The notes under the pieces: model-generated
What the model was told of the DNA's origin: nothing
The model's input: the letters and a program-made list of their open reading frames with translations, nothing else
The model's database searches: none
Sequence record: OP292222.1
Length of the DNA stretch: 64,000 nucleotides
Source: Escherichia phage Esco_phi_B-01
Strand: one strand, 5' to 3'
Shown: positions 3,222-62,587 of the stretch, piece after piece
Layout of the letters: every line of letters starts with the position of its first letter
Numbering within the stretch: the stretch's first letter is position 1
Made by a program: the position numbers and the translations under genes

Positions 3222-4890
3222 GTTAAAAAAAGTAACGTATAAAAATATTATGTCGGTAGGGCAGCAGCCCATTACAATCCAACTTGACAAGGTCCAAAAG
3301 ACCTTAGTCACTGGTAAAAATGGTGCAGGGAAATCAACATTCCTTGAAGCTGTAACATTTGCTCTGTTCGGTAAGCCTTTTCGTGATGTTAAGAAAGGGC
3401 AGTTGATTAACTCAAGTAACAAGAAAGACCTTTTGGTCGAACTGTGGATGGAATATGATGGCAAAGAATACTATATCAAACGCGGGCAAAAACCCAACGT
3501 TTTTGAAATCTCTTGTGACGGTGAACGTCTTGATGAATCTGCCAGCAGTAAAGACTTCCAAGCGGAATTTGAACAGCTTATCGGAATGTCCTATGCAAGC
3601 TTCAAACAAATTGTCGTACTCGGCACAGCTGGATATACCCCTTTTATGGGCCTATCCACTCCTGCAAGAAGAAAACTCGTCGAAGACCTCTTAGAGGTTT
3701 CTGTATTAGCGGATATGGATAAGTTAAACAAATCTTTGATTCGTGAGACTAATAGCCAAATCCAAGTAATAGACGTTAAGCAAGATTCTATTACCCAACA
3801 AATTAAAATTTATAATGACAACGAAGAACGTCAACGTAAATTATCTGGCGAAAACGCTGCCCGTCTACAATTAATGTATGATGAGCTCGTTAAAGAAGCC
3901 AGGACTGCGAAGGCGAGCATAGAATCCCTGACTGATGAATTACTCAATGTTATCGTAGATGATGACCCTAGCGACTCCATGAGTGACCTGAGTAATAAAG
4001 GATTTGCAATCAAAAATGATATGGCGACCTTTACAAAGGTGGTTAAGTTATACGAAACTGGTGGTCACTGCCCTACGTGTATGCAAGGGTTAGAAGAGCA
4101 TGGTAATATCCTTACTAAAATTAAGGATAAAAACTTTGAGCTTCAAAAATCTTTGGATAAGATTAATGAGCAATACCAAGAGCTCAAGCTCATTAAAGAC
4201 CAAGTAACCGAACAACGCAATAAAGCGTTGGCTATTAAATCTCAGATAGCTACTCATAAGCAGCAAGCCATTACTGCTGTAGAGAAAGCCAAAAAGGTTA
4301 AGGTATTAATTGACCAAGCAGCAGCTGAGTTCGTAAGTAATGCCGAAGAGATTGCTACGCTTCAAGCAGAGCTTGATAAAATCGTCTCTACCAAATCGTC
4401 CTTGGTAATGGAAAAATATCATCGTGGAATTCTGACAGAAATGTTGAAGGATACTGGTATTAAAGGTTCCATTATTAAGAAATACATTCCTATCTTTAAT
4501 AAGCAGATTAATTCTTATTTGAAGATTATGGAAGCGGACTACGTCTTTACCCTAGACGAAGAATTCAATGAGACGATTAAATCACGTGGACGTGAAGACT
4601 TTAGTTATGCTTCATTTTCACAGGGTGAGAAAGCACGTATTGATATAGCACTTCTTTTTACATGGCGCGATATTGCTTCTAAGGTATCAGGTGTTAATAT
4701 CAGCACGTTAATTCTTGATGAAGTTTTTGATAGTGCAACTGACGCTGAAGGCGTTAAGAGCATTGCAACCATCTTGAATAGCCTTGAGGATACGAACGTG
4801 TTCATTATCTCTCACCGAGACCATGACCCACAAGCTTATGGCCAACATCTTCAAATGAAGAAAGTTGGGCGATTCACGGTGTTAGAATGA
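3208..4890 (+). CDS. 46: gp46 recombination ATPase subunit (Rad50/SbcC-like)
   Basis: Walker A GKNGAGKST, coiled-coil middle with CPTC zinc hook, C-terminal LILDEVFD Walker B; start chosen at MKTFKL by alignment to T4. Confidence 0.9.
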   Translation: MKTFKLKKVTYKNIMSVGQQPITIQLDKVQKTLVTGKNGAGKSTFLEAVTFALFGKPFRDVKKGQLINSSNKKDLLVELWMEYDGKEYYIKRGQKPNVFEISCDGERLDESASSKDFQAEFEQLIGMSYASFKQIVVLGTAGYTPFMGLSTPARRKLVEDLLEVSVLADMDKLNKSLIRETNSQIQVIDVKQDSITQQIKIYNDNEERQRKLSGENAARLQLMYDELVKEARTAKASIESLTDELLNVIVDDDPSDSMSDLSNKGFAIKNDMATFTKVVKLYETGGHCPTCMQGLEEHGNILTKIKDKNFELQKSLDKINEQYQELKLIKDQVTEQRNKALAIKSQIATHKQQAITAVEKAKKVKVLIDQAAAEFVSNAEEIATLQAELDKIVSTKSSLVMEKYHRGILTEMLKDTGIKGSIIKKYIPIFNKQINSYLKIMEADYVFTLDEEFNETIKSRGREDFSYASFSQGEKARIDIALLFTWRDIASKVSGVNISTLILDEVFDSATDAEGVKSIATILNSLEDTNVFIISHRDHDPQAYGQHLQMKKVGRFTVLE

Positions 4891-30268: not shown

Positions 30269-30297
30269 GTTTACTTCTCCTCATGACATGATATTAT
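30269..30297 (+). promoter_or_regulatory. T4-type early promoter (GTTTAC - 17 - TGaTATTAT)
   Basis: consensus elements. Confidence 0.6.
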
Positions 30298-30324: not shown

Positions 30325-30834
30325 ATGAAACTTTATCGAGTTGAGTCATCGTTCAGTATCTTAGATGATGGAAACGCTATCACAATACGACGAGACCTCT
30401 GTACTCAAATGACCCCGTATAGAAGTACAACAGACTCATGGAGTGAAGGCTGGTTATTAGAAGTAGGTTTAGACAGGCCTATTTTTAGACACCATCATAG
30501 CATTAATAAAAATATCCCACTACCAAGTCAAGATAAGCTGTTGGTAGAAAATTCTAATAAAGCCATTAGAACTAAGTGGAAAAGGCCTGATTATGAAGGC
30601 TCTGATGATTATATTCCAGGTTGGTTTGTTAACCTCTACCATTTTGCTTTTGCCAGTGAGTATGATATGATGCGCTGGTTCACTCGTGAAGAGCGTGAAG
30701 AATTATCTTCTAAAGGATTCTATCTTGCTGTTTACGAAATACCAGAAGATGAGGTTGTCATCGGTGGCCGCCAAGTAATGTTCCGCAAATCCCATGCCGA
30801 ACTTGTAGATTTTATTGAATTGAGAACAATATGA
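30325..30834 (+). CDS. hypothetical protein (169 aa)
   Basis: ORF track; RBS gaggaga. Confidence 0.55.
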   Translation: MKLYRVESSFSILDDGNAITIRRDLCTQMTPYRSTTDSWSEGWLLEVGLDRPIFRHHHSINKNIPLPSQDKLLVENSNKAIRTKWKRPDYEGSDDYIPGWFVNLYHFAFASEYDMMRWFTREEREELSSKGFYLAVYEIPEDEVVIGGRQVMFRKSHAELVDFIELRTI

Positions 30835-31379
30835 AATTTAATTACAACCCTAAATACACCCCGAATCCGGCAGCTAAACTGATTGATTTTGATGTTTTAA
30901 GCACTTATGTATGCCCTGTTAAACCACTGGAAATTAAGGAAACCACTATGACTACTCAGACTATCGAAATCGGCAAAACCTACAAACTGGTTGAACCTGA
31001 AATTAAAACTAAGGCCTTGATTTCTGGTTATAAAACTCTGACTTATGTTTTTGGCGAAGGCGAATTTATTGTTGAAGAATTCGCCAAAAGTGAGTGGTTT
31101 GACAAATCTTACGTCCTCCACGGCCGCCGGTTAGATAATAACAAAATAGAGAAAAACCTGGTTTATGAAGATGAGTTCATCCTGTTCCAAGAAGTTGAAG
31201 AACAAGGCCCTACCGACCTGTTGTGTGCTGCTGTGGCTATCCGTCGTCCTTTTGATAATCCTATCTGTGGTTGGGTAACAGACCAGTGGATTGAAGATGG
31301 TGTTGAACTCCTGAACGTTGTACATGCTGGTGATTTTAGCGTAGTACCTCGTAGTGCAGTGGTTAATGTATTGAATTAA
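30831..31379 (+). CDS. hypothetical protein (182 aa), paralog of 31453-32019
   Basis: shared C-terminal domain (GWVTDQWIEDGVELLNVVHAGDFSVVPRS vs GYITDQWVEEGVKLYNIVFLGTFKVVPES). Confidence 0.5.
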   Translation: MKFNYNPKYTPNPAAKLIDFDVLSTYVCPVKPLEIKETTMTTQTIEIGKTYKLVEPEIKTKALISGYKTLTYVFGEGEFIVEEFAKSEWFDKSYVLHGRRLDNNKIEKNLVYEDEFILFQEVEEQGPTDLLCAAVAIRRPFDNPICGWVTDQWIEDGVELLNVVHAGDFSVVPRSAVVNVLN

Positions 31380-31381
31380 TA

Positions 31382-31410
31382 GTTTACTTTATCGAGGGCC
31401 ATGTTATAAT
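31382..31410 (+). promoter_or_regulatory. T4-type early promoter (GTTTAC - 17 - TGtTATAAT)
   Basis: consensus elements. Confidence 0.6.
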
Positions 31411-31452
31411 GGCTCTCATGGATTATAAACCTTTAACCAAGAGAGAAAAATT

Positions 31453-32019
31453 ATGATTACTATTTCCGATATCGGCAGTATCGTTCGTGTATCCAAAAAG
31501 TCTCGTTCAAAAGCTGCGGGCAGTTTAGTTGAAGTTGTTAGCATCCAACTTAAAGAAGGTGTCAGTGAAGAAAATTATGAAGTAAAAGTTCGTATCATTC
31601 CTAAAAATCGCCAGACTGAAACCCAATTCGGTTATGTGCGCGCTAAATTCTTGGAATCGACTGAATTTACCGGATACATCGCTCCCGTAGTTGAAGAAGT
31701 TGAATCCCATGATGGGTATGTATGTGAAAGCAATGATATCCGTGGCGTAGTAGCTCAAGACGTTGAAACTATTGACCAATCTCATGTCGGCGTTGATTTC
31801 AAATGGAAATTAGGTCGAGGAGTGTGTTTTAATACTCCTAAACCGTTCAAATATGTTGACGAACCTTTTGGTACTTATGAAACTACTAGCATGTCCGGTT
31901 ACATCACAGACCAGTGGGTTGAAGAAGGCGTTAAGCTTTATAACATCGTGTTCCTTGGAACCTTTAAAGTGGTTCCTGAAAGCTTTATTGTCGAGTATGC
32001 TAATATTCATCGTGCATAA
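31453..32019 (+). CDS. hypothetical protein (188 aa), paralog of 30831-31379
   Basis: see paralog; RBS gagagaaaaa. Confidence 0.55.
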   Translation: MITISDIGSIVRVSKKSRSKAAGSLVEVVSIQLKEGVSEENYEVKVRIIPKNRQTETQFGYVRAKFLESTEFTGYIAPVVEEVESHDGYVCESNDIRGVVAQDVETIDQSHVGVDFKWKLGRGVCFNTPKPFKYVDEPFGTYETTSMSGYITDQWVEEGVKLYNIVFLGTFKVVPESFIVEYANIHRA

Positions 32020-32179: not shown

Positions 32180-32398
32180 ATGGCTAAAGTTGCTGTGAAC
32201 TCAACTCGCGAAGAATTTGAAGATGTTCTGTTCAACCCTGATTTAATCGTAGTTCAAAAGGAACATTCTGATACGTTTTCTCATTTATCGTCGGTTTATG
32301 TATACGAAAATCAAGGTGATAAAAACCCTATCTATGCAGTGTTCCGTGAAATTACTGCTGAAGGTACTGACTTCTGGAAGGAAACTTATAATGCGTAA
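32180..32398 (+). CDS. hypothetical protein (72 aa)
   Basis: start after RBS aaggaga. Confidence 0.45.
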   Translation: MAKVAVNSTREEFEDVLFNPDLIVVQKEHSDTFSHLSSVYVYENQGDKNPIYAVFREITAEGTDFWKETYNA

Positions 32399-32807
32399 TC
32401 AATCTAAATTTGAAGTTGGTAAGTGGTATTATTTTAAAGACGAAGCATCTGAAGCTGAATTCCGTCGTAGAGTTATCAATAACACCGGTATAGCGGATGC
32501 TATTGTTGAAGCCGAAGGTTTTTGTCCAAGGACTATCAAAGCGGGTAATGTAATTAATGTAGACCTAGCTTATGGTGATAATAAAGATATGATTTTATAT
32601 CCTACTGAGCGGAAATTCTTTACTGAAATGTGTGTAGTTGAAAATGAAGATGAATGGGCAGAAGACGGTGTCTCCGAAGACGAAGACCAGTCTGAAGATG
32701 CTGCGCCGTTCGAACCGAGTGATTTCCCTTTGACTAAAATCACTATTTCTAATAATTCTGAAGCCTGGACAGTTTACCAGATGCTGAAAGCCCACTTTAA
32801 GGAATAA
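32391..32807 (+). CDS. hypothetical protein (138 aa), acidic C-terminus
   Basis: ATG overlapping the upstream stop. Confidence 0.5.
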   Translation: MRNQSKFEVGKWYYFKDEASEAEFRRRVINNTGIADAIVEAEGFCPRTIKAGNVINVDLAYGDNKDMILYPTERKFFTEMCVVENEDEWAEDGVSEDEDQSEDAAPFEPSDFPLTKITISNNSEAWTVYQMLKAHFKE

Positions 32808-61187: not shown

Positions 61188-61213
61188 GGGAAGACTTCGG
61201 TCTTCCCTTTTTG
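61188..61213 (+). terminator. intrinsic terminator (gggaagac-ttcg-gtcttccc + T5)
   Basis: 8-bp stem, UUCG loop, T run. Confidence 0.7.
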
Positions 61214-61223
61214 GCATTTAATG

Positions 61224-61252
61224 GTTTACAATGCCTTTAAACATGATACTAT
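61224..61252 (+). promoter_or_regulatory. T4-type early promoter (GTTTAC - 17 - TGaTACTAT)
   Basis: consensus plus conserved leader. Confidence 0.65.
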
Positions 61253-61281: not shown

Positions 61282-61650
61282 ATGGAAATTGGTAAATTTT
61301 ACGTATTAGACCCTGCTGCCAAAAAACAATTCATCGCTGGTAGTCCTGATGATAATTATAATTCGTGCATGGTCAAGTTGATGGAACAACATGGCAATTC
61401 CTTCAAAGTCCTGGATATGAGTTATATTGAAGGTGATTATTTTGTTGAAAAAGTTGAAATGAAAGATGGCACTATCCTGAATAGTATGGGTGGGCCTGAT
61501 GAGTACTTTGAACTCGGTGAATGGGAATTCCAACATTTCATGGAAGTTGATGGTGATGCACCTGTTGATACCCAAACCATTCATGTGCAGGTAAACCACA
61601 AAAATGCGGCAGAAGTTGTTGCCTTGATTAAAGCAACCTTTGGAATTTAA
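61282..61650 (+). CDS. hypothetical protein (122 aa), tandem paralog of the next gene
   Basis: shares M.IGK.Y.L.P...EEYFEL.E.EF architecture with 61654-62034. Confidence 0.5.
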   Translation: MEIGKFYVLDPAAKKQFIAGSPDDNYNSCMVKLMEQHGNSFKVLDMSYIEGDYFVEKVEMKDGTILNSMGGPDEYFELGEWEFQHFMEVDGDAPVDTQTIHVQVNHKNAAEVVALIKATFGI

Positions 61651-61653
61651 AAA

Positions 61654-62034
61654 ATGAAAATTGGTAAAAAATACGAACTTCGCCCTGAGTGTATCAAAGC
61701 TTTTATTAATATCACCCCTATCAATAATAATGATATGGTCGATATTATCCAAGAAAACGGCGGGTGGTTTGAAGTAAAGGATACAATGACCACAGATGGG
61801 GATAAATTTGTAACTAAAATCAAATGTGCTAATGGCAAGATTTTTAGTTCGGACGGAACACTAGAGGAATATTTTGAATTGCATGAAGATGAGTTCTATT
61901 GCTTCCGTGAATATGACGAAGATGAAGTTGACAAACCTGTTACTAAGGCAGGCGTGACTCAAATCCATTGCATTGTTACCGAACAGAACGTTGACCAAAT
62001 TATTGAACTTTTGCAAAAAACTTTTAAGGCCTAA
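61654..62034 (+). CDS. hypothetical protein (126 aa), tandem paralog
   Basis: see previous. Confidence 0.5.
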   Translation: MKIGKKYELRPECIKAFINITPINNNDMVDIIQENGGWFEVKDTMTTDGDKFVTKIKCANGKIFSSDGTLEEYFELHEDEFYCFREYDEDEVDKPVTKAGVTQIHCIVTEQNVDQIIELLQKTFKA

Positions 62035-62298: not shown

Positions 62299-62327
62299 GT
62301 TTACAAGGTCTATAGGCATGATACTAT
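62299..62327 (+). promoter_or_regulatory. T4-type early promoter (GTTTAC - 17 - TGaTACTAT)
   Basis: consensus; flanking inverted repeat ggtctatag / ctatagacc. Confidence 0.65.
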
Positions 62328-62359: not shown

Positions 62360-62587
62360 ATGGCTAAGGTTAATATTGATATCGTTGATTTTGAATACAC
62401 CTACGAAGTTATCCGTAATCGTTATCCTTCTTTGACTATGACTTATATCAAAGACACACAATTCTGTAGTATGCAAATTGAAGTCCAAGGTCCTCTTGAA
62501 GACCTTACCCGCTTTATGGCTGATGAATATTGCGATGGTATGCATGCTGAAGACGCTGAATTTTATATGGGCTTAATTCAAAAATAA
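62360..62587 (+). CDS. hypothetical protein (75 aa)
   Basis: ORF track; RBS gaggaaaat. Confidence 0.5.

What the first reader, a model, noticed from the sequence alone, without database searches (positions are those of the whole stretch)
30831..32019. Tandem paralogous genes of unknown function (and a second pair at 61282-62034)
The ORFs at 30831-31379 and 31453-32019 share a conserved C-terminal domain with a TDQW(V/I)E(E/D)GV motif and different N-termini; each has its own early promoter. The ORFs at 61282-61650 and 61654-62034 are another adjacent paralog pair. Duplicated, diverging early genes are frequent among anti-defence or host-takeover factors.
Basis: seen in the sequence. Interest (0 to 1): 0.35.

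Follow-up and report, generated by a model that had tools for sequence, protein, structure and literature searches.

The report
T4-type motB.1/motB and frd.2 pairs
The two adjacent gene pairs are real paralogs, but they are the already described motB.1/motB and frd.2a/frd.2b early genes of a T4-like (JS98-type) coliphage, so the finding is ordinary, apart from a few small details not mentioned in the papers I read.

Summary
The ORFs at 30831-31379 and 31453-32019 share a C-terminal block of about 38 aa (50% identity, E 2e-11), including TDQW(I/V)E(D/E)GV. The ORFs at 61282-61650 and 61654-62034 are full-length paralogs (38% identity, E 2e-23).

The window is a Dhakavirus (JS98-like) T4-type phage. 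Pair 1 is motB.1 plus motB. Pair 2 is frd.2a plus frd.2b (Pfam FRD2). Both relationships are published. Patterson-West et al. 2021 reported the shared MotB/MotB.1 C-terminal domain and proposed a duplication. Kim et al. 2025 grouped the MotB.1, GoF and Frd.2 N-terminal domains as an "LSm-like" family.

"Unknown function" is wrong for MotB. T4 MotB is a toxic, non-specific DNA-binding early protein that copurifies with H-NS/StpA and alters H-NS footprints. MotB.1 and Frd.2 remain uncharacterised.

"Each has its own promoter" is half right. Only motB has one (31383-31410). motB.1 overlaps the motB.2 stop codon (ATGA). The frd.2 pair shares one promoter.

My own additions:
- Both pair-1 proteins model as two small beta-barrels.
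- The shared domain is acidic.
- MotB.1 carries a conserved disordered motif.
- More distant T4-like phages have one gene in place of the pair.
- The T4 reference motB.1 is frameshift-truncated.

Novelty: already known. Interest: low.

The parts
30270..30297 (+). Promoter-like site (TTTACT-16-TG-TATTAT) upstream of motB.2. It is the likely promoter for the motB.2-motB.1 unit.
   Evidence: Consensus scan. Function is inferred, not shown.
30325..30834 (+). motB.2 homolog (169 aa, PHROG 1106, function unknown). Its stop codon overlaps the motB.1 start (ATGA).
30831..31379 (+). motB.1 homolog, long form (182 aa): disordered N-terminus with a conserved motif, an LSm/SH3-like barrel, and a MotB-type C-terminal barrel.
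   Evidence: PHROG 2333 E 6e-86. JS98 annotation and synteny. AF2 model.
30879..30920 (+). Conserved linear motif LIDFDVLSTYVCPV (aa 17-30; pattern phi-D-x-D-phi-x-x-[MT]-Y) in a segment modelled as disordered.
   Evidence: pLDDT below 50 for aa 1-42, yet column conservation is 0.89. The motif is in 116/120 MotB.1 homologs, 0/93 MotB and 0/23 Frd.2, and occurs once in the six-frame window.
30936..30950 (+). Internal Shine-Dalgarno-like AAGGA, 7 nt, then ATG (Met40) at the start of the LSm-like domain. It may be a relic start or a site of internal initiation.
   Evidence: Sequence. K36, E37 and M40 are invariant in 34 homologs. This is inference only.
30957..31205 (+). MotB.1 N-terminal barrel (aa 43-125), remotely related to the Frd.2/GoF N-terminal domain.
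   Evidence: phrog_622 E 1e-3. hhalign P 1.4e-4 over 81 columns, 53% probability. Five strands plus helices, pLDDT about 70-80.
31206..31376 (+). MotB.1 C-terminal domain (aa 126-182), compact form of the domain shared with MotB. It is acidic (net -4).
31383..31410 (+). Early-type promoter-like site for motB (GTTTACT-16-TGtTATAAT, 10/12 match).
   Evidence: A similar GTTTACA...TATAAT sequence occupies the same gap in T4.
31453..32019 (+). motB (188 aa): basic KOW/SH3-like N-terminal barrel (aa 1-68), acidic disordered linker (aa 69-110), and C-terminal barrel (aa 111-188).
   Evidence: Pfam PF17613 E 5e-61. 55% identity to T4 MotB, E 9e-67. AF2 model. Charges.
32391..32807 (+). goF-like gene (138 aa), a third and more distant member of the Frd.2/GoF family in this window.
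   Evidence: phrog_622 E 2e-24. 36% identity to T4 GoF, E 1e-14.
61188..61207 (+). Terminator-like hairpin followed by a T-run, after gene 32.
61225..61252 (+). Promoter-like site (GTTTACA-16-TG-TACTAT) serving both frd.2 genes.
61282..61650 (+). frd.2a (122 aa), the diverged copy. It is 34% identical to T4 Frd.2.
   Evidence: Pfam FRD2 E 9e-32.. Copies at 60% identity or more occur in only 66 phage records.
61654..62034 (+). frd.2b (126 aa), the conservative copy. It is 62% identical to T4 Frd.2.
   Evidence: Pfam FRD2 E 8e-39..

Best explanation
The window comes from a JS98-like (Dhakavirus) T4-type coliphage. Pair 1 is motB.1 followed by motB, in the conserved block dexA - motB.2 - motB.1 - motB - cef - goF - 39.2 - 39.1 - 39. 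The two proteins share one module, a C-terminal small beta-barrel of about 50 residues with the core G(W/Y)(V/I)TDQW(I/V)E(D/E)GV-L-N-V. It is attached to different N-terminal barrels.

MotB has a basic KOW/SH3-like N-terminal barrel and an acidic disordered linker. MotB.1 has a Frd.2/GoF-type ('LSm-like') barrel preceded by a conserved disordered motif.

Shown for the T4 ortholog, not here: MotB is abundant early, toxic when expressed alone, and binds DNA without sequence specificity. It copurifies with H-NS/StpA, changes the H-NS footprint, de-represses part of the H-NS regulon, and doubles burst size.

Inferred here: DNA binding sits in the basic N-terminal barrel. The shared acidic C-terminal barrel is a protein-contact or self-association module, not the DNA binder. 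MotB.1 would then deliver the same module, plus its linear motif, without DNA binding, acting as a partner or modulator in the same host-nucleoid takeover pathway.

The pair most likely arose by an old tandem duplication of a single KOW-motif-barrel gene, a form still present in Kanagawavirus-type and related phages. One copy then swapped its N-terminal domain for an frd.2/goF-type domain.

Pair 2 is a lineage-restricted tandem duplication of frd.2, transcribed from one promoter. Its biochemical function is unknown. The family fold and the GoF(D25Y) phenotype point to post-transcriptional or RNA-related modulation.
For: Identity and synteny:
- Megablast gives 88-96% identity to JS98-group phages, with motB.1/motB and frd.2a/frd.2b annotated there.
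- Pfam MotB and FRD2 hits lie far above the gathering scores. PHROG 2333, 1671 and 622 also match.
- Window MotB is 55% identical to T4 MotB over the full length.

Shared module:
- establish the similarity.
- It is old rather than a recent conversion: third-codon identity is 13/38.

Folds:
- The AF2 models show two barrels in each protein. The strand order is beta1-4, a short helix, then beta5, with pLDDT about 75-90 in the barrels.
- The best PDB matches for both are tandem Tudor domains, but weak (E 4e-3 to 1e-2).
- Foldseek aligns the window MotB.1 model with the predicted T4 MotB.1 structure over 118 columns.

Charge:
- The MotB N-terminal barrel is +2 to +9 in all 45 homologs.
- The MotB C-terminal domain has a median charge of -2.
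- The MotB.1 C-terminal domain is -3 to -6 in all 34 homologs.

Single-gene state:
- Edwardsiella phage PEi20 and relatives have one place per genome, between motB.2 and cef. It encodes KOW + DxDxxxMY motif + MotB.1-type barrel.

Frd.2:
- The diverged copy is confined to 66 records. Other T4-likes match only at under 60% identity (34-41% in the rows sampled), mostly with a single frd.2 place per record.

Literature: PMC6070864, PMC7827196, PMC12152347, PMC11879866.
Against: - No experiment exists for this phage. All functional statements are transferred from T4.
- Which MotB domain binds DNA has not been mapped. The 2021 paper left both open and called the C-terminal domain an OB fold.
- My barrel assignment rests on AF2 secondary-structure order and on Foldseek matches that do not reach E 1e-3.
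- T4 motB.1 deletion and amber mutants showed no change in burst size or plating. MotB.1 had no effect in the RNA reporter assay, so there is no phenotype to anchor a role (PMC12152347).
- The MotB.1-to-Frd.2 domain link is weak by sequence here (53% hhalign probability, PHROG E 1e-3).
- The direction of evolution, from a single gene to a pair, is inferred from distribution, not from a rooted tree.
Confidence: 0.85

Rival explanations
1. The shared C-terminal domain is the nucleic-acid-binding part, an OB-fold or cold-shock-like domain as proposed in 2021. On this view MotB.1 is a second DNA- or RNA-binding protein.
For: HHpred-based assignment in PMC7827196 (eIF5A C-terminal domain hits). The MotB.1 N-terminal fold is LSm-like, and such folds often bind RNA (PMC12152347).
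Against: The domain is acidic in every MotB.1 homolog (-3 to -6) and about neutral in MotB. The modelled strand order puts the short helix between beta4 and beta5, which is SH3-like, not between beta3 and beta4 as in an OB fold. Among the 50 PDB matches listed for MotB, the only OB-related entry is a low-probability cold-shock-protein complex at rank 24. MotB.1 had no effect on reporter RNA (PMC12152347).
Confidence: 0.2
2. The pairs are anti-defence genes that diversify by duplication. Their lack of laboratory phenotype would reflect missing defence systems in laboratory hosts.
For: They are early, non-essential, lineage-variable and modular. T4 motB.1 and goF mutants have no phenotype on standard hosts (PMC12152347).
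Against: No published or computed link to any defence system was found (literature search). The MotB effects that have been measured concern H-NS and DNA. frd.2 scored as a fitness gene in T4 on an ordinary laboratory host (PMC11879866), which argues for a core role rather than a counter-defence role.
Confidence: 0.1
3. The C-terminal similarity reflects recent gene conversion or a recent duplicate, not an old functional module.
For: The genes are adjacent and the core is very similar (9 of 10 identical or conservative residues in GWVTDQWIED versus GYITDQWVEE).
Against: Nucleotide identity over the shared block is 56%. Third codon positions match at only 13/38, which is close to saturation. 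Both forms are separately conserved across hundreds of phages.
Confidence: 0.02

Closest known systems
T4 MotB ('modifier of transcription', Pfam PF17613; Patterson-West et al. 2018, 2021)
   Same: The ORF at 31453-32019 is its ortholog. It is 55% identical over the full length and sits in the same genomic position between motB.1 and cef. It has the same two-domain layout and the same early-type promoter in the upstream gap.
   Different: The window protein has a 24-aa insertion in the acidic linker. No experimental data exist for it. My model suggests an SH3/Tudor-like C-terminal barrel rather than the published OB-fold assignment, on weak evidence.
T4 MotB.1 (PHROG 2333; Category 2/4 proteins of Patterson-West et al. 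2021; 'LSm-like family' of Kim et al. 2025)
   Same: The ORF at 30831-31379 is in the same PHROG and in the same position upstream of motB. Its stop-start arrangement with motB.2 is similarly tight. It shares the C-terminal core, and the predicted structures align over 118 columns.
   Different: BLASTP similarity to T4 MotB.1 covers only aa 104-154, so the N-terminal barrel sequence has diverged. The window form has an extra 42-aa N-terminal segment carrying the DxDxxx[MT]Y motif, which T4 lacks. The T4 reference protein is annotated without the last three strands (see the items noticed in passing).
T4 Frd.2 / GoF family (Pfam FRD2 PF03197, PHROG 622)
   Same: Both ORFs of pair 2 match FRD2 over the full length. 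They sit just downstream of gene 32, in the 32-to-frd block where T4 has frd.2. The goF-like ORF at 32391-32807 belongs to the same PHROG.
   Different: T4 has one frd.2, whereas this lineage has two in tandem. The first copy has diverged to 34% identity with T4 Frd.2.
Tandem Tudor / SH3-like small beta-barrel proteins (53BP1, UHRF1 TTD, SAWADEE)
   Same: They are the best structural matches for both pair-1 models: two small five-stranded barrels in tandem.
   Different: The matches are weak (E 4e-3 or worse, TM 0.2-0.4, 8-15% identity). An aromatic cage was not examined. There is no evolutionary link. This is a resemblance in fold class only.

Membership tests
MotB (Pfam PF17613) | Full-length match to the family profile above the gathering score | tested here: met
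   The ORF at 31453-32019 scores 205.6 bits against a cutoff of 25, E 5e-61. PHROG 1671 E 3e-70 covers aa 5-188.
MotB (Pfam PF17613) | Position between motB.1 and cef in the dexA-to-gene-39 early block | tested here: met
   The gene order in the window matches JS98 and T4.
MotB (Pfam PF17613) | Non-specific DNA binding, toxicity, and copurification with H-NS/StpA | not testable with these tools
   Known only for T4 MotB (PMC6070864, PMC7827196).
MotB (Pfam PF17613), applied to the ORF at 30831-31379 | Full-length match including the KOW-like N-terminal domain | tested here: not met
   Only profile positions 117-153 of 162 match (34.9 bits). The N-terminal domains show no similarity (hhalign E 0.91). 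It shares a domain with MotB but is not a MotB ortholog.
MotB.1 (PHROG 2333) | Profile match, position immediately upstream of motB, and a MotB-type C-terminal core | tested here: met
   E 6e-86 over aa 1-182. Synteny. C-terminal-domain hhalign 99.2%.
FRD2 (Pfam PF03197) | Profile match above the gathering score | tested here: met
   110.1 and 132.7 bits against a cutoff of 29.
FRD2 (Pfam PF03197) | Location in the 32-to-frd block | tested here: met
Phage 'LSm-like fold' family (GoF / MotB.1 / Frd.2 N-terminal domains; Kim et al. 2025) | N-terminal bent five-stranded antiparallel sheet shared by the three proteins | tested here: inconclusive
   For MotB.1, AF2 gives five strands plus helices at pLDDT about 70-80. 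The sequence link to Frd.2 is weak but consistent in three MotB.1 proteins (PHROG 622 E 1e-3 to 1e-4; hhalign P 1.4e-4, 53%).
Canonical Sm/LSm/Hfq proteins | Sm1/Sm2 motifs, ring oligomer, RNA binding | not tested
   No Pfam LSM or Hfq hit at E 0.1 or better. The best PDB neighbours were Tudor domains, not Hfq. Kim et al. could not model multimers with confidence (PMC12152347).
OB-fold cold-shock DNA-binding domain (published assignment for the MotB C-terminal domain) | beta1-beta3, helix, beta4-beta5 topology and a basic or aromatic nucleic-acid-binding face | tested here: inconclusive
   In the models the short helix lies between beta4 and beta5, and the domain is acidic or neutral. The profile found no PDB sequence match.

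The most novel reading that the evidence does not exclude
The MotB/MotB.1 C-terminal barrel, together with the conserved disordered motif phi-D-x-D-phi-x-x-[MT]-Y, forms a host-protein-binding cassette. The motif is found in long MotB.1 forms and in single-gene KOW-motif-barrel 'MotB' proteins, but never in T-even MotB. T4-like phages attach this cassette to interchangeable small beta-barrel 'heads' (KOW-like, or one or two Frd.2/GoF-like). After duplication, MotB kept DNA binding, while MotB.1 kept the motif and became a DNA-free competitor or adaptor for the same host target, for example H-NS/StpA. Published work on the T4 119-aa MotB.1 would have missed this. That construct may lack the last three strands of the barrel (if it followed the reference annotation), and the T4-type protein lacks the motif.
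Probability: 0.2. Interest if true: 0.45.

Novelty: already known. Interest (0 to 1): 0.15.

Why it matters
As a discovery it matters little. Both paralog relationships, the duplication hypothesis and the domain families are in the literature, and the genes carry names in the closest GenBank records.

The residual value is practical. [quoted passage not shown]

Three details found here could redirect experiments:
- The true T4 MotB.1 is probably 143 aa rather than 119 aa.
- A conserved linear motif accompanies the shared barrel.
- Some T4-like phages carry a single gene in place of the motB.1/motB pair.

Tried and rejected
- **More copies in the window.** HMMs of the MotB/MotB.1 C-terminal domain, the MotB N-terminal domain, the MotB.1 N-terminal domain and Frd.2 were run against all 2283 six-frame segments of 15 aa or more. 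No further copies of the C-terminal domain turned up. The goF-like ORF was not detected by my shallow Frd.2 profile (E > 1) and is recovered only by PHROG 622.
- **Segment 4827-5075.** It recurred among weak phmmer hits, but it belongs to an unrelated family (PHROG 1045).
- **Solved structures.** MotB alone and profiles A3 and A6 against PDB sequences gave nothing meaningful: Pizza designer proteins at E 0.08 and an oxidoreductase at E 1.4.
- **NCBIfam and PADLOC.** No hits.
- **Foldseek against PDB.** No match at E 1e-3 or better for either model. The Tudor resemblance is therefore a fold-class hint, not a family assignment.
- **Chance similarity and recent gene conversion.** Both were considered and rejected.

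Full report
**Observation.** The four ORFs are present exactly as described.
- Pair 1: the 182-aa and 188-aa products align only at their C-termini, aa 145-182 against aa 147-184. The match is 19/38 identical and 27/38 similar, E 2e-11.
- Against all stop-to-stop segments of the window, each protein finds only the other (E about 3e-9).
- Pair 2: the products align end to end at 38% identity, E 2e-23.
- Chance is excluded.

**What the window is.** The 3.7-kb stretch around pair 1 is 88-96% identical to JS98-group coliphages (Dhakavirus, Tevenvirinae), and the stretch around pair 2 is 95-97.5% identical.
- The JS98 record names the genes dexA, motB.2, motB.1, motB, cef, a goF-like gene, 39.2, 39.1 and 39. 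T4 has the same order.
- Downstream of gene 32, JS98 has frd.2a, frd.2b, an ORF, frd.3, frd.1 and frd. T4 has a single frd.2 there.

**Family assignments.**
- The ORF at 31453-32019 matches Pfam MotB at E 5e-61. It is 55% identical to T4 MotB over the full length, apart from a 24-aa insertion in the linker.
- The ORF at 30831-31379 is PHROG 2333, the MotB.1 family, at E 6e-86. It touches the Pfam MotB profile only at positions 117-153.
- Both ORFs of pair 2 match Pfam FRD2 (E 9e-32 and 8e-39).
- The second frd.2 copy is 62% identical to T4 Frd.2. The first is only 34% identical.
- The goF-like ORF at 32391-32807 falls in the same PHROG (622) as T4 GoF and T4 Frd.2.

**What is already published.**
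- Patterson-West et al. 2018 (PMC6070864) showed that T4 MotB is toxic in E. coli and binds modified and unmodified DNA without sequence specificity. It copurifies with H-NS and StpA and doubles burst size.
- Patterson-West et al. 2021 (PMC7827196) showed that MotB alters the H-NS DNase I footprint and up-regulates 75 host genes, a third of them in the H-NS regulon.
[quoted passage not shown] - Kim et al. [quoted passage not shown] They found no phenotype for motB.1 or frd.2 mutants and no effect of MotB.1 on a reporter RNA.
- Adler et al. 2025 (PMC11879866) found frd.2 to be the only T4 "Fit" gene of unknown function.

**Promoters.**
- A 10/12 match with an extended -10 (GTTTACT-16-TGtTATAAT) lies at 31383-31410, in the 73-nt gap before motB. 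T4 has a similar sequence in the same gap.
- motB.1 has no such site. Its ATG overlaps the motB.2 stop codon (ATGA at 30831-30834). The nearest early-type site is 30270-30297, ahead of motB.2.
- After gene 32 there is a terminator-like hairpin (61188-61207) and one promoter-like site (61225-61252). The two frd.2 genes are 3 nt apart.
- These are consensus matches, not demonstrated promoters.

**Anatomy of the proteins (my analysis).**
- MotB.1 was modelled with AF2 on a 34-sequence alignment. Residues 1-42 are disordered (pLDDT below 50).
- Its first barrel has strands at 50-53, 78-86, 93-100, 105-112 and 119-121, with helices at 61-74 and 113-118.
- Its second barrel has strands at 134-137, 145-155, 158-165, 168-173 and 177-181.
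- The MotB model shows a barrel at 10-68, a disordered segment at 71-109, and a barrel at 123-182 whose first hairpin is long.
- In all four barrels a short helical turn sits between the fourth and fifth strands. That is the SH3-like small-barrel order, not the OB order (established fold knowledge).
- Foldseek against the PDB puts tandem Tudor domains (53BP1, UHRF1, SAWADEE) on top for both models. No match reaches E 1e-3 and TM-scores are 0.2-0.4. I take this as a hint about fold class only.
- Against predicted viral structures, the MotB.1 model aligns with T4 MotB.1 over 118 columns (E 3.5e-7), although BLASTP sees only aa 104-154.
- Profile comparison links the MotB.1 first barrel to the Frd.2 N-terminal domain weakly: P 1.4e-4 over 81 columns at 53% probability. 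PHROG 622 E-values are 1e-3 to 1e-4 for three MotB.1 proteins.
- The two C-terminal domains match at 99.2% probability.

**Charge.**
- The MotB N-terminal barrel is basic in all 45 homologs examined (+2 to +9), and the linker is acidic.
- The MotB C-terminal domain is near neutral (median -2).
- The MotB.1 C-terminal domain is acidic in all 34 homologs (-3 to -6), and MotB.1 as a whole has pI 4.8.
- I infer that DNA binding by MotB resides in the KOW-like barrel. The shared barrel would then serve protein contact or self-association.
- This is inference. The 2021 paper left both domains open.

**Distribution and evolution.**
- A profile of the shared domain was searched against 1.84 billion representative proteins. 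It found only 33 hits at E 1e-3 or better. About 25 are credible, all 101-251 aa.
- Their architectures are modular: KOW + MotB-type barrel, KOW + MotB.1-type barrel, one Frd.2-like barrel + barrel, and two such barrels + barrel.
- The KOW + MotB.1-type form is the only copy in Edwardsiella phage PEi20 and in the Kosakonia and Enterobacter phage records listed. In PEi20, the one locus I inspected, it sits between motB.2 and cef.
- A simple deletion between motB.1 and motB could not produce that order of parts.
- I therefore read the single gene as closer to the ancestral state, and the pair as an old duplication followed by a swap of the N-terminal domain.
- The age is supported by third-codon identity of 13/38 across the shared block.
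- The diverged frd.2a copy occurs at 60% identity or more in only 66 phage records. Elsewhere a single frd.2 matches at 34-41%.

**A conserved linear motif.**
- The disordered N-terminus of MotB.1 is better conserved than its first barrel (0.89 against 0.81).
- It holds LIDFDVLSTYVCPV. The pattern phi-D-x-D-phi-x-x-[MT]-Y is present in 116 of 120 long MotB.1 homologs and in nine of the representative proteins, including the KOW hybrids.
- It is absent from all 93 MotB and all 23 Frd.2 homologs. It occurs once in the six-frame translation of the window.
- Its position varies: ahead of the first barrel in some proteins, directly ahead of the C-terminal barrel in others.
- I did not see it mentioned in the sections of the two papers that I read. 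T4-type MotB.1 lacks it.

**Verdict.** The feature is already known and named. The mechanism given above rests on T4 experiments for MotB, and on inference for the division of labour between domains and for MotB.1 and Frd.2.

Noticed in passing
L002 (T4 NC_000866.4) 4130-4340, minus strand; corresponds to window 31263-31379: The T4 reference motB.1 (119 aa, '13.8 kDa') ends GWVTDQWI-GRWR*. The next frame continues directly with EDGVELLNVVHAGEYSVVPRSAVVAILN*, which is the missing end of the shared barrel. The cause is one extra G (ATT GGA AGA, against ATT GAA GAT in the window). A repaired 143-aa protein matches 13 other T4, T4T, RB55 and RB59 genome records at 100% in one piece. Only AF158101.6 and NC_000866.4 need two pieces. 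The reference annotation is probably a sequencing error or a strain-specific frameshift. Kim et al. 2025 quote 13.8 kDa for MotB.1.
   Followed up: yes
window 30879-30920 (MotB.1 aa 17-30): A conserved short linear motif, phi-D-x-D-phi-x-x-[MT]-Y, lies in a segment modelled as disordered. It is specific to proteins with a MotB.1-type C-terminal barrel (116/120 homologs, 0/93 MotB). It is a candidate partner-binding peptide.
   Followed up: partly
window 30936-30950: An internal AAGGA, 7 nt, then ATG (Met40) lies at the start of the Frd.2-like barrel of MotB.1. K36, E37 and M40 are invariant in 34 homologs. A product starting at Met40 would be 143 aa, the same length as the repaired T4 MotB.1. 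This may be the relic start codon of the inserted domain or a second initiation site.
   Followed up: no
P0011, P0070, P0082, P0117, P0240, P0253 (homologs): MotB.1 forms of about 250 aa carry a further N-terminal domain ahead of the motif. Window residues 1-16 (MKFNYNPKYTPNPAAK) look like what remains after an internal deletion of about 68 aa from such a form.
   Followed up: partly
L005 (Edwardsiella phage PEi20) 2501-2956: A single 'motB' gene sits between motB.2 and cef. It encodes a KOW-like N-terminal barrel, the DxDxxxMY motif and a MotB.1-type compact barrel, combining features that are split between the two genes in the window.
   Followed up: yes
P0261 (43 aa): A metagenomic 43-aa ORF joins the first 13 or so residues of MotB.2 (MKIYRVESSFSIL) to the last 28 residues of the MotB.1 barrel. 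This suggests that a deletion removed most of motB.2 and motB.1 in some phage. It recalls the 29-aa RB69 peptide ('Category 3') of Patterson-West et al. 2021.
   Followed up: no
window 32391-32807: The goF-like gene starts 8 nt inside cef (cef ends at 32398). The mechanical ORF list gives a longer ORF from 32298, and Met32 of that ORF corresponds to the JS98 and T4 start. It is a third Frd.2/GoF-family member in the window.
   Followed up: partly
window 62300-62327: A second copy of the same promoter-like sequence as at 61225-61252 (TTTACA-16-TG-TACTAT) lies ahead of the frd.3 homolog at 62360-62587.
   Followed up: no
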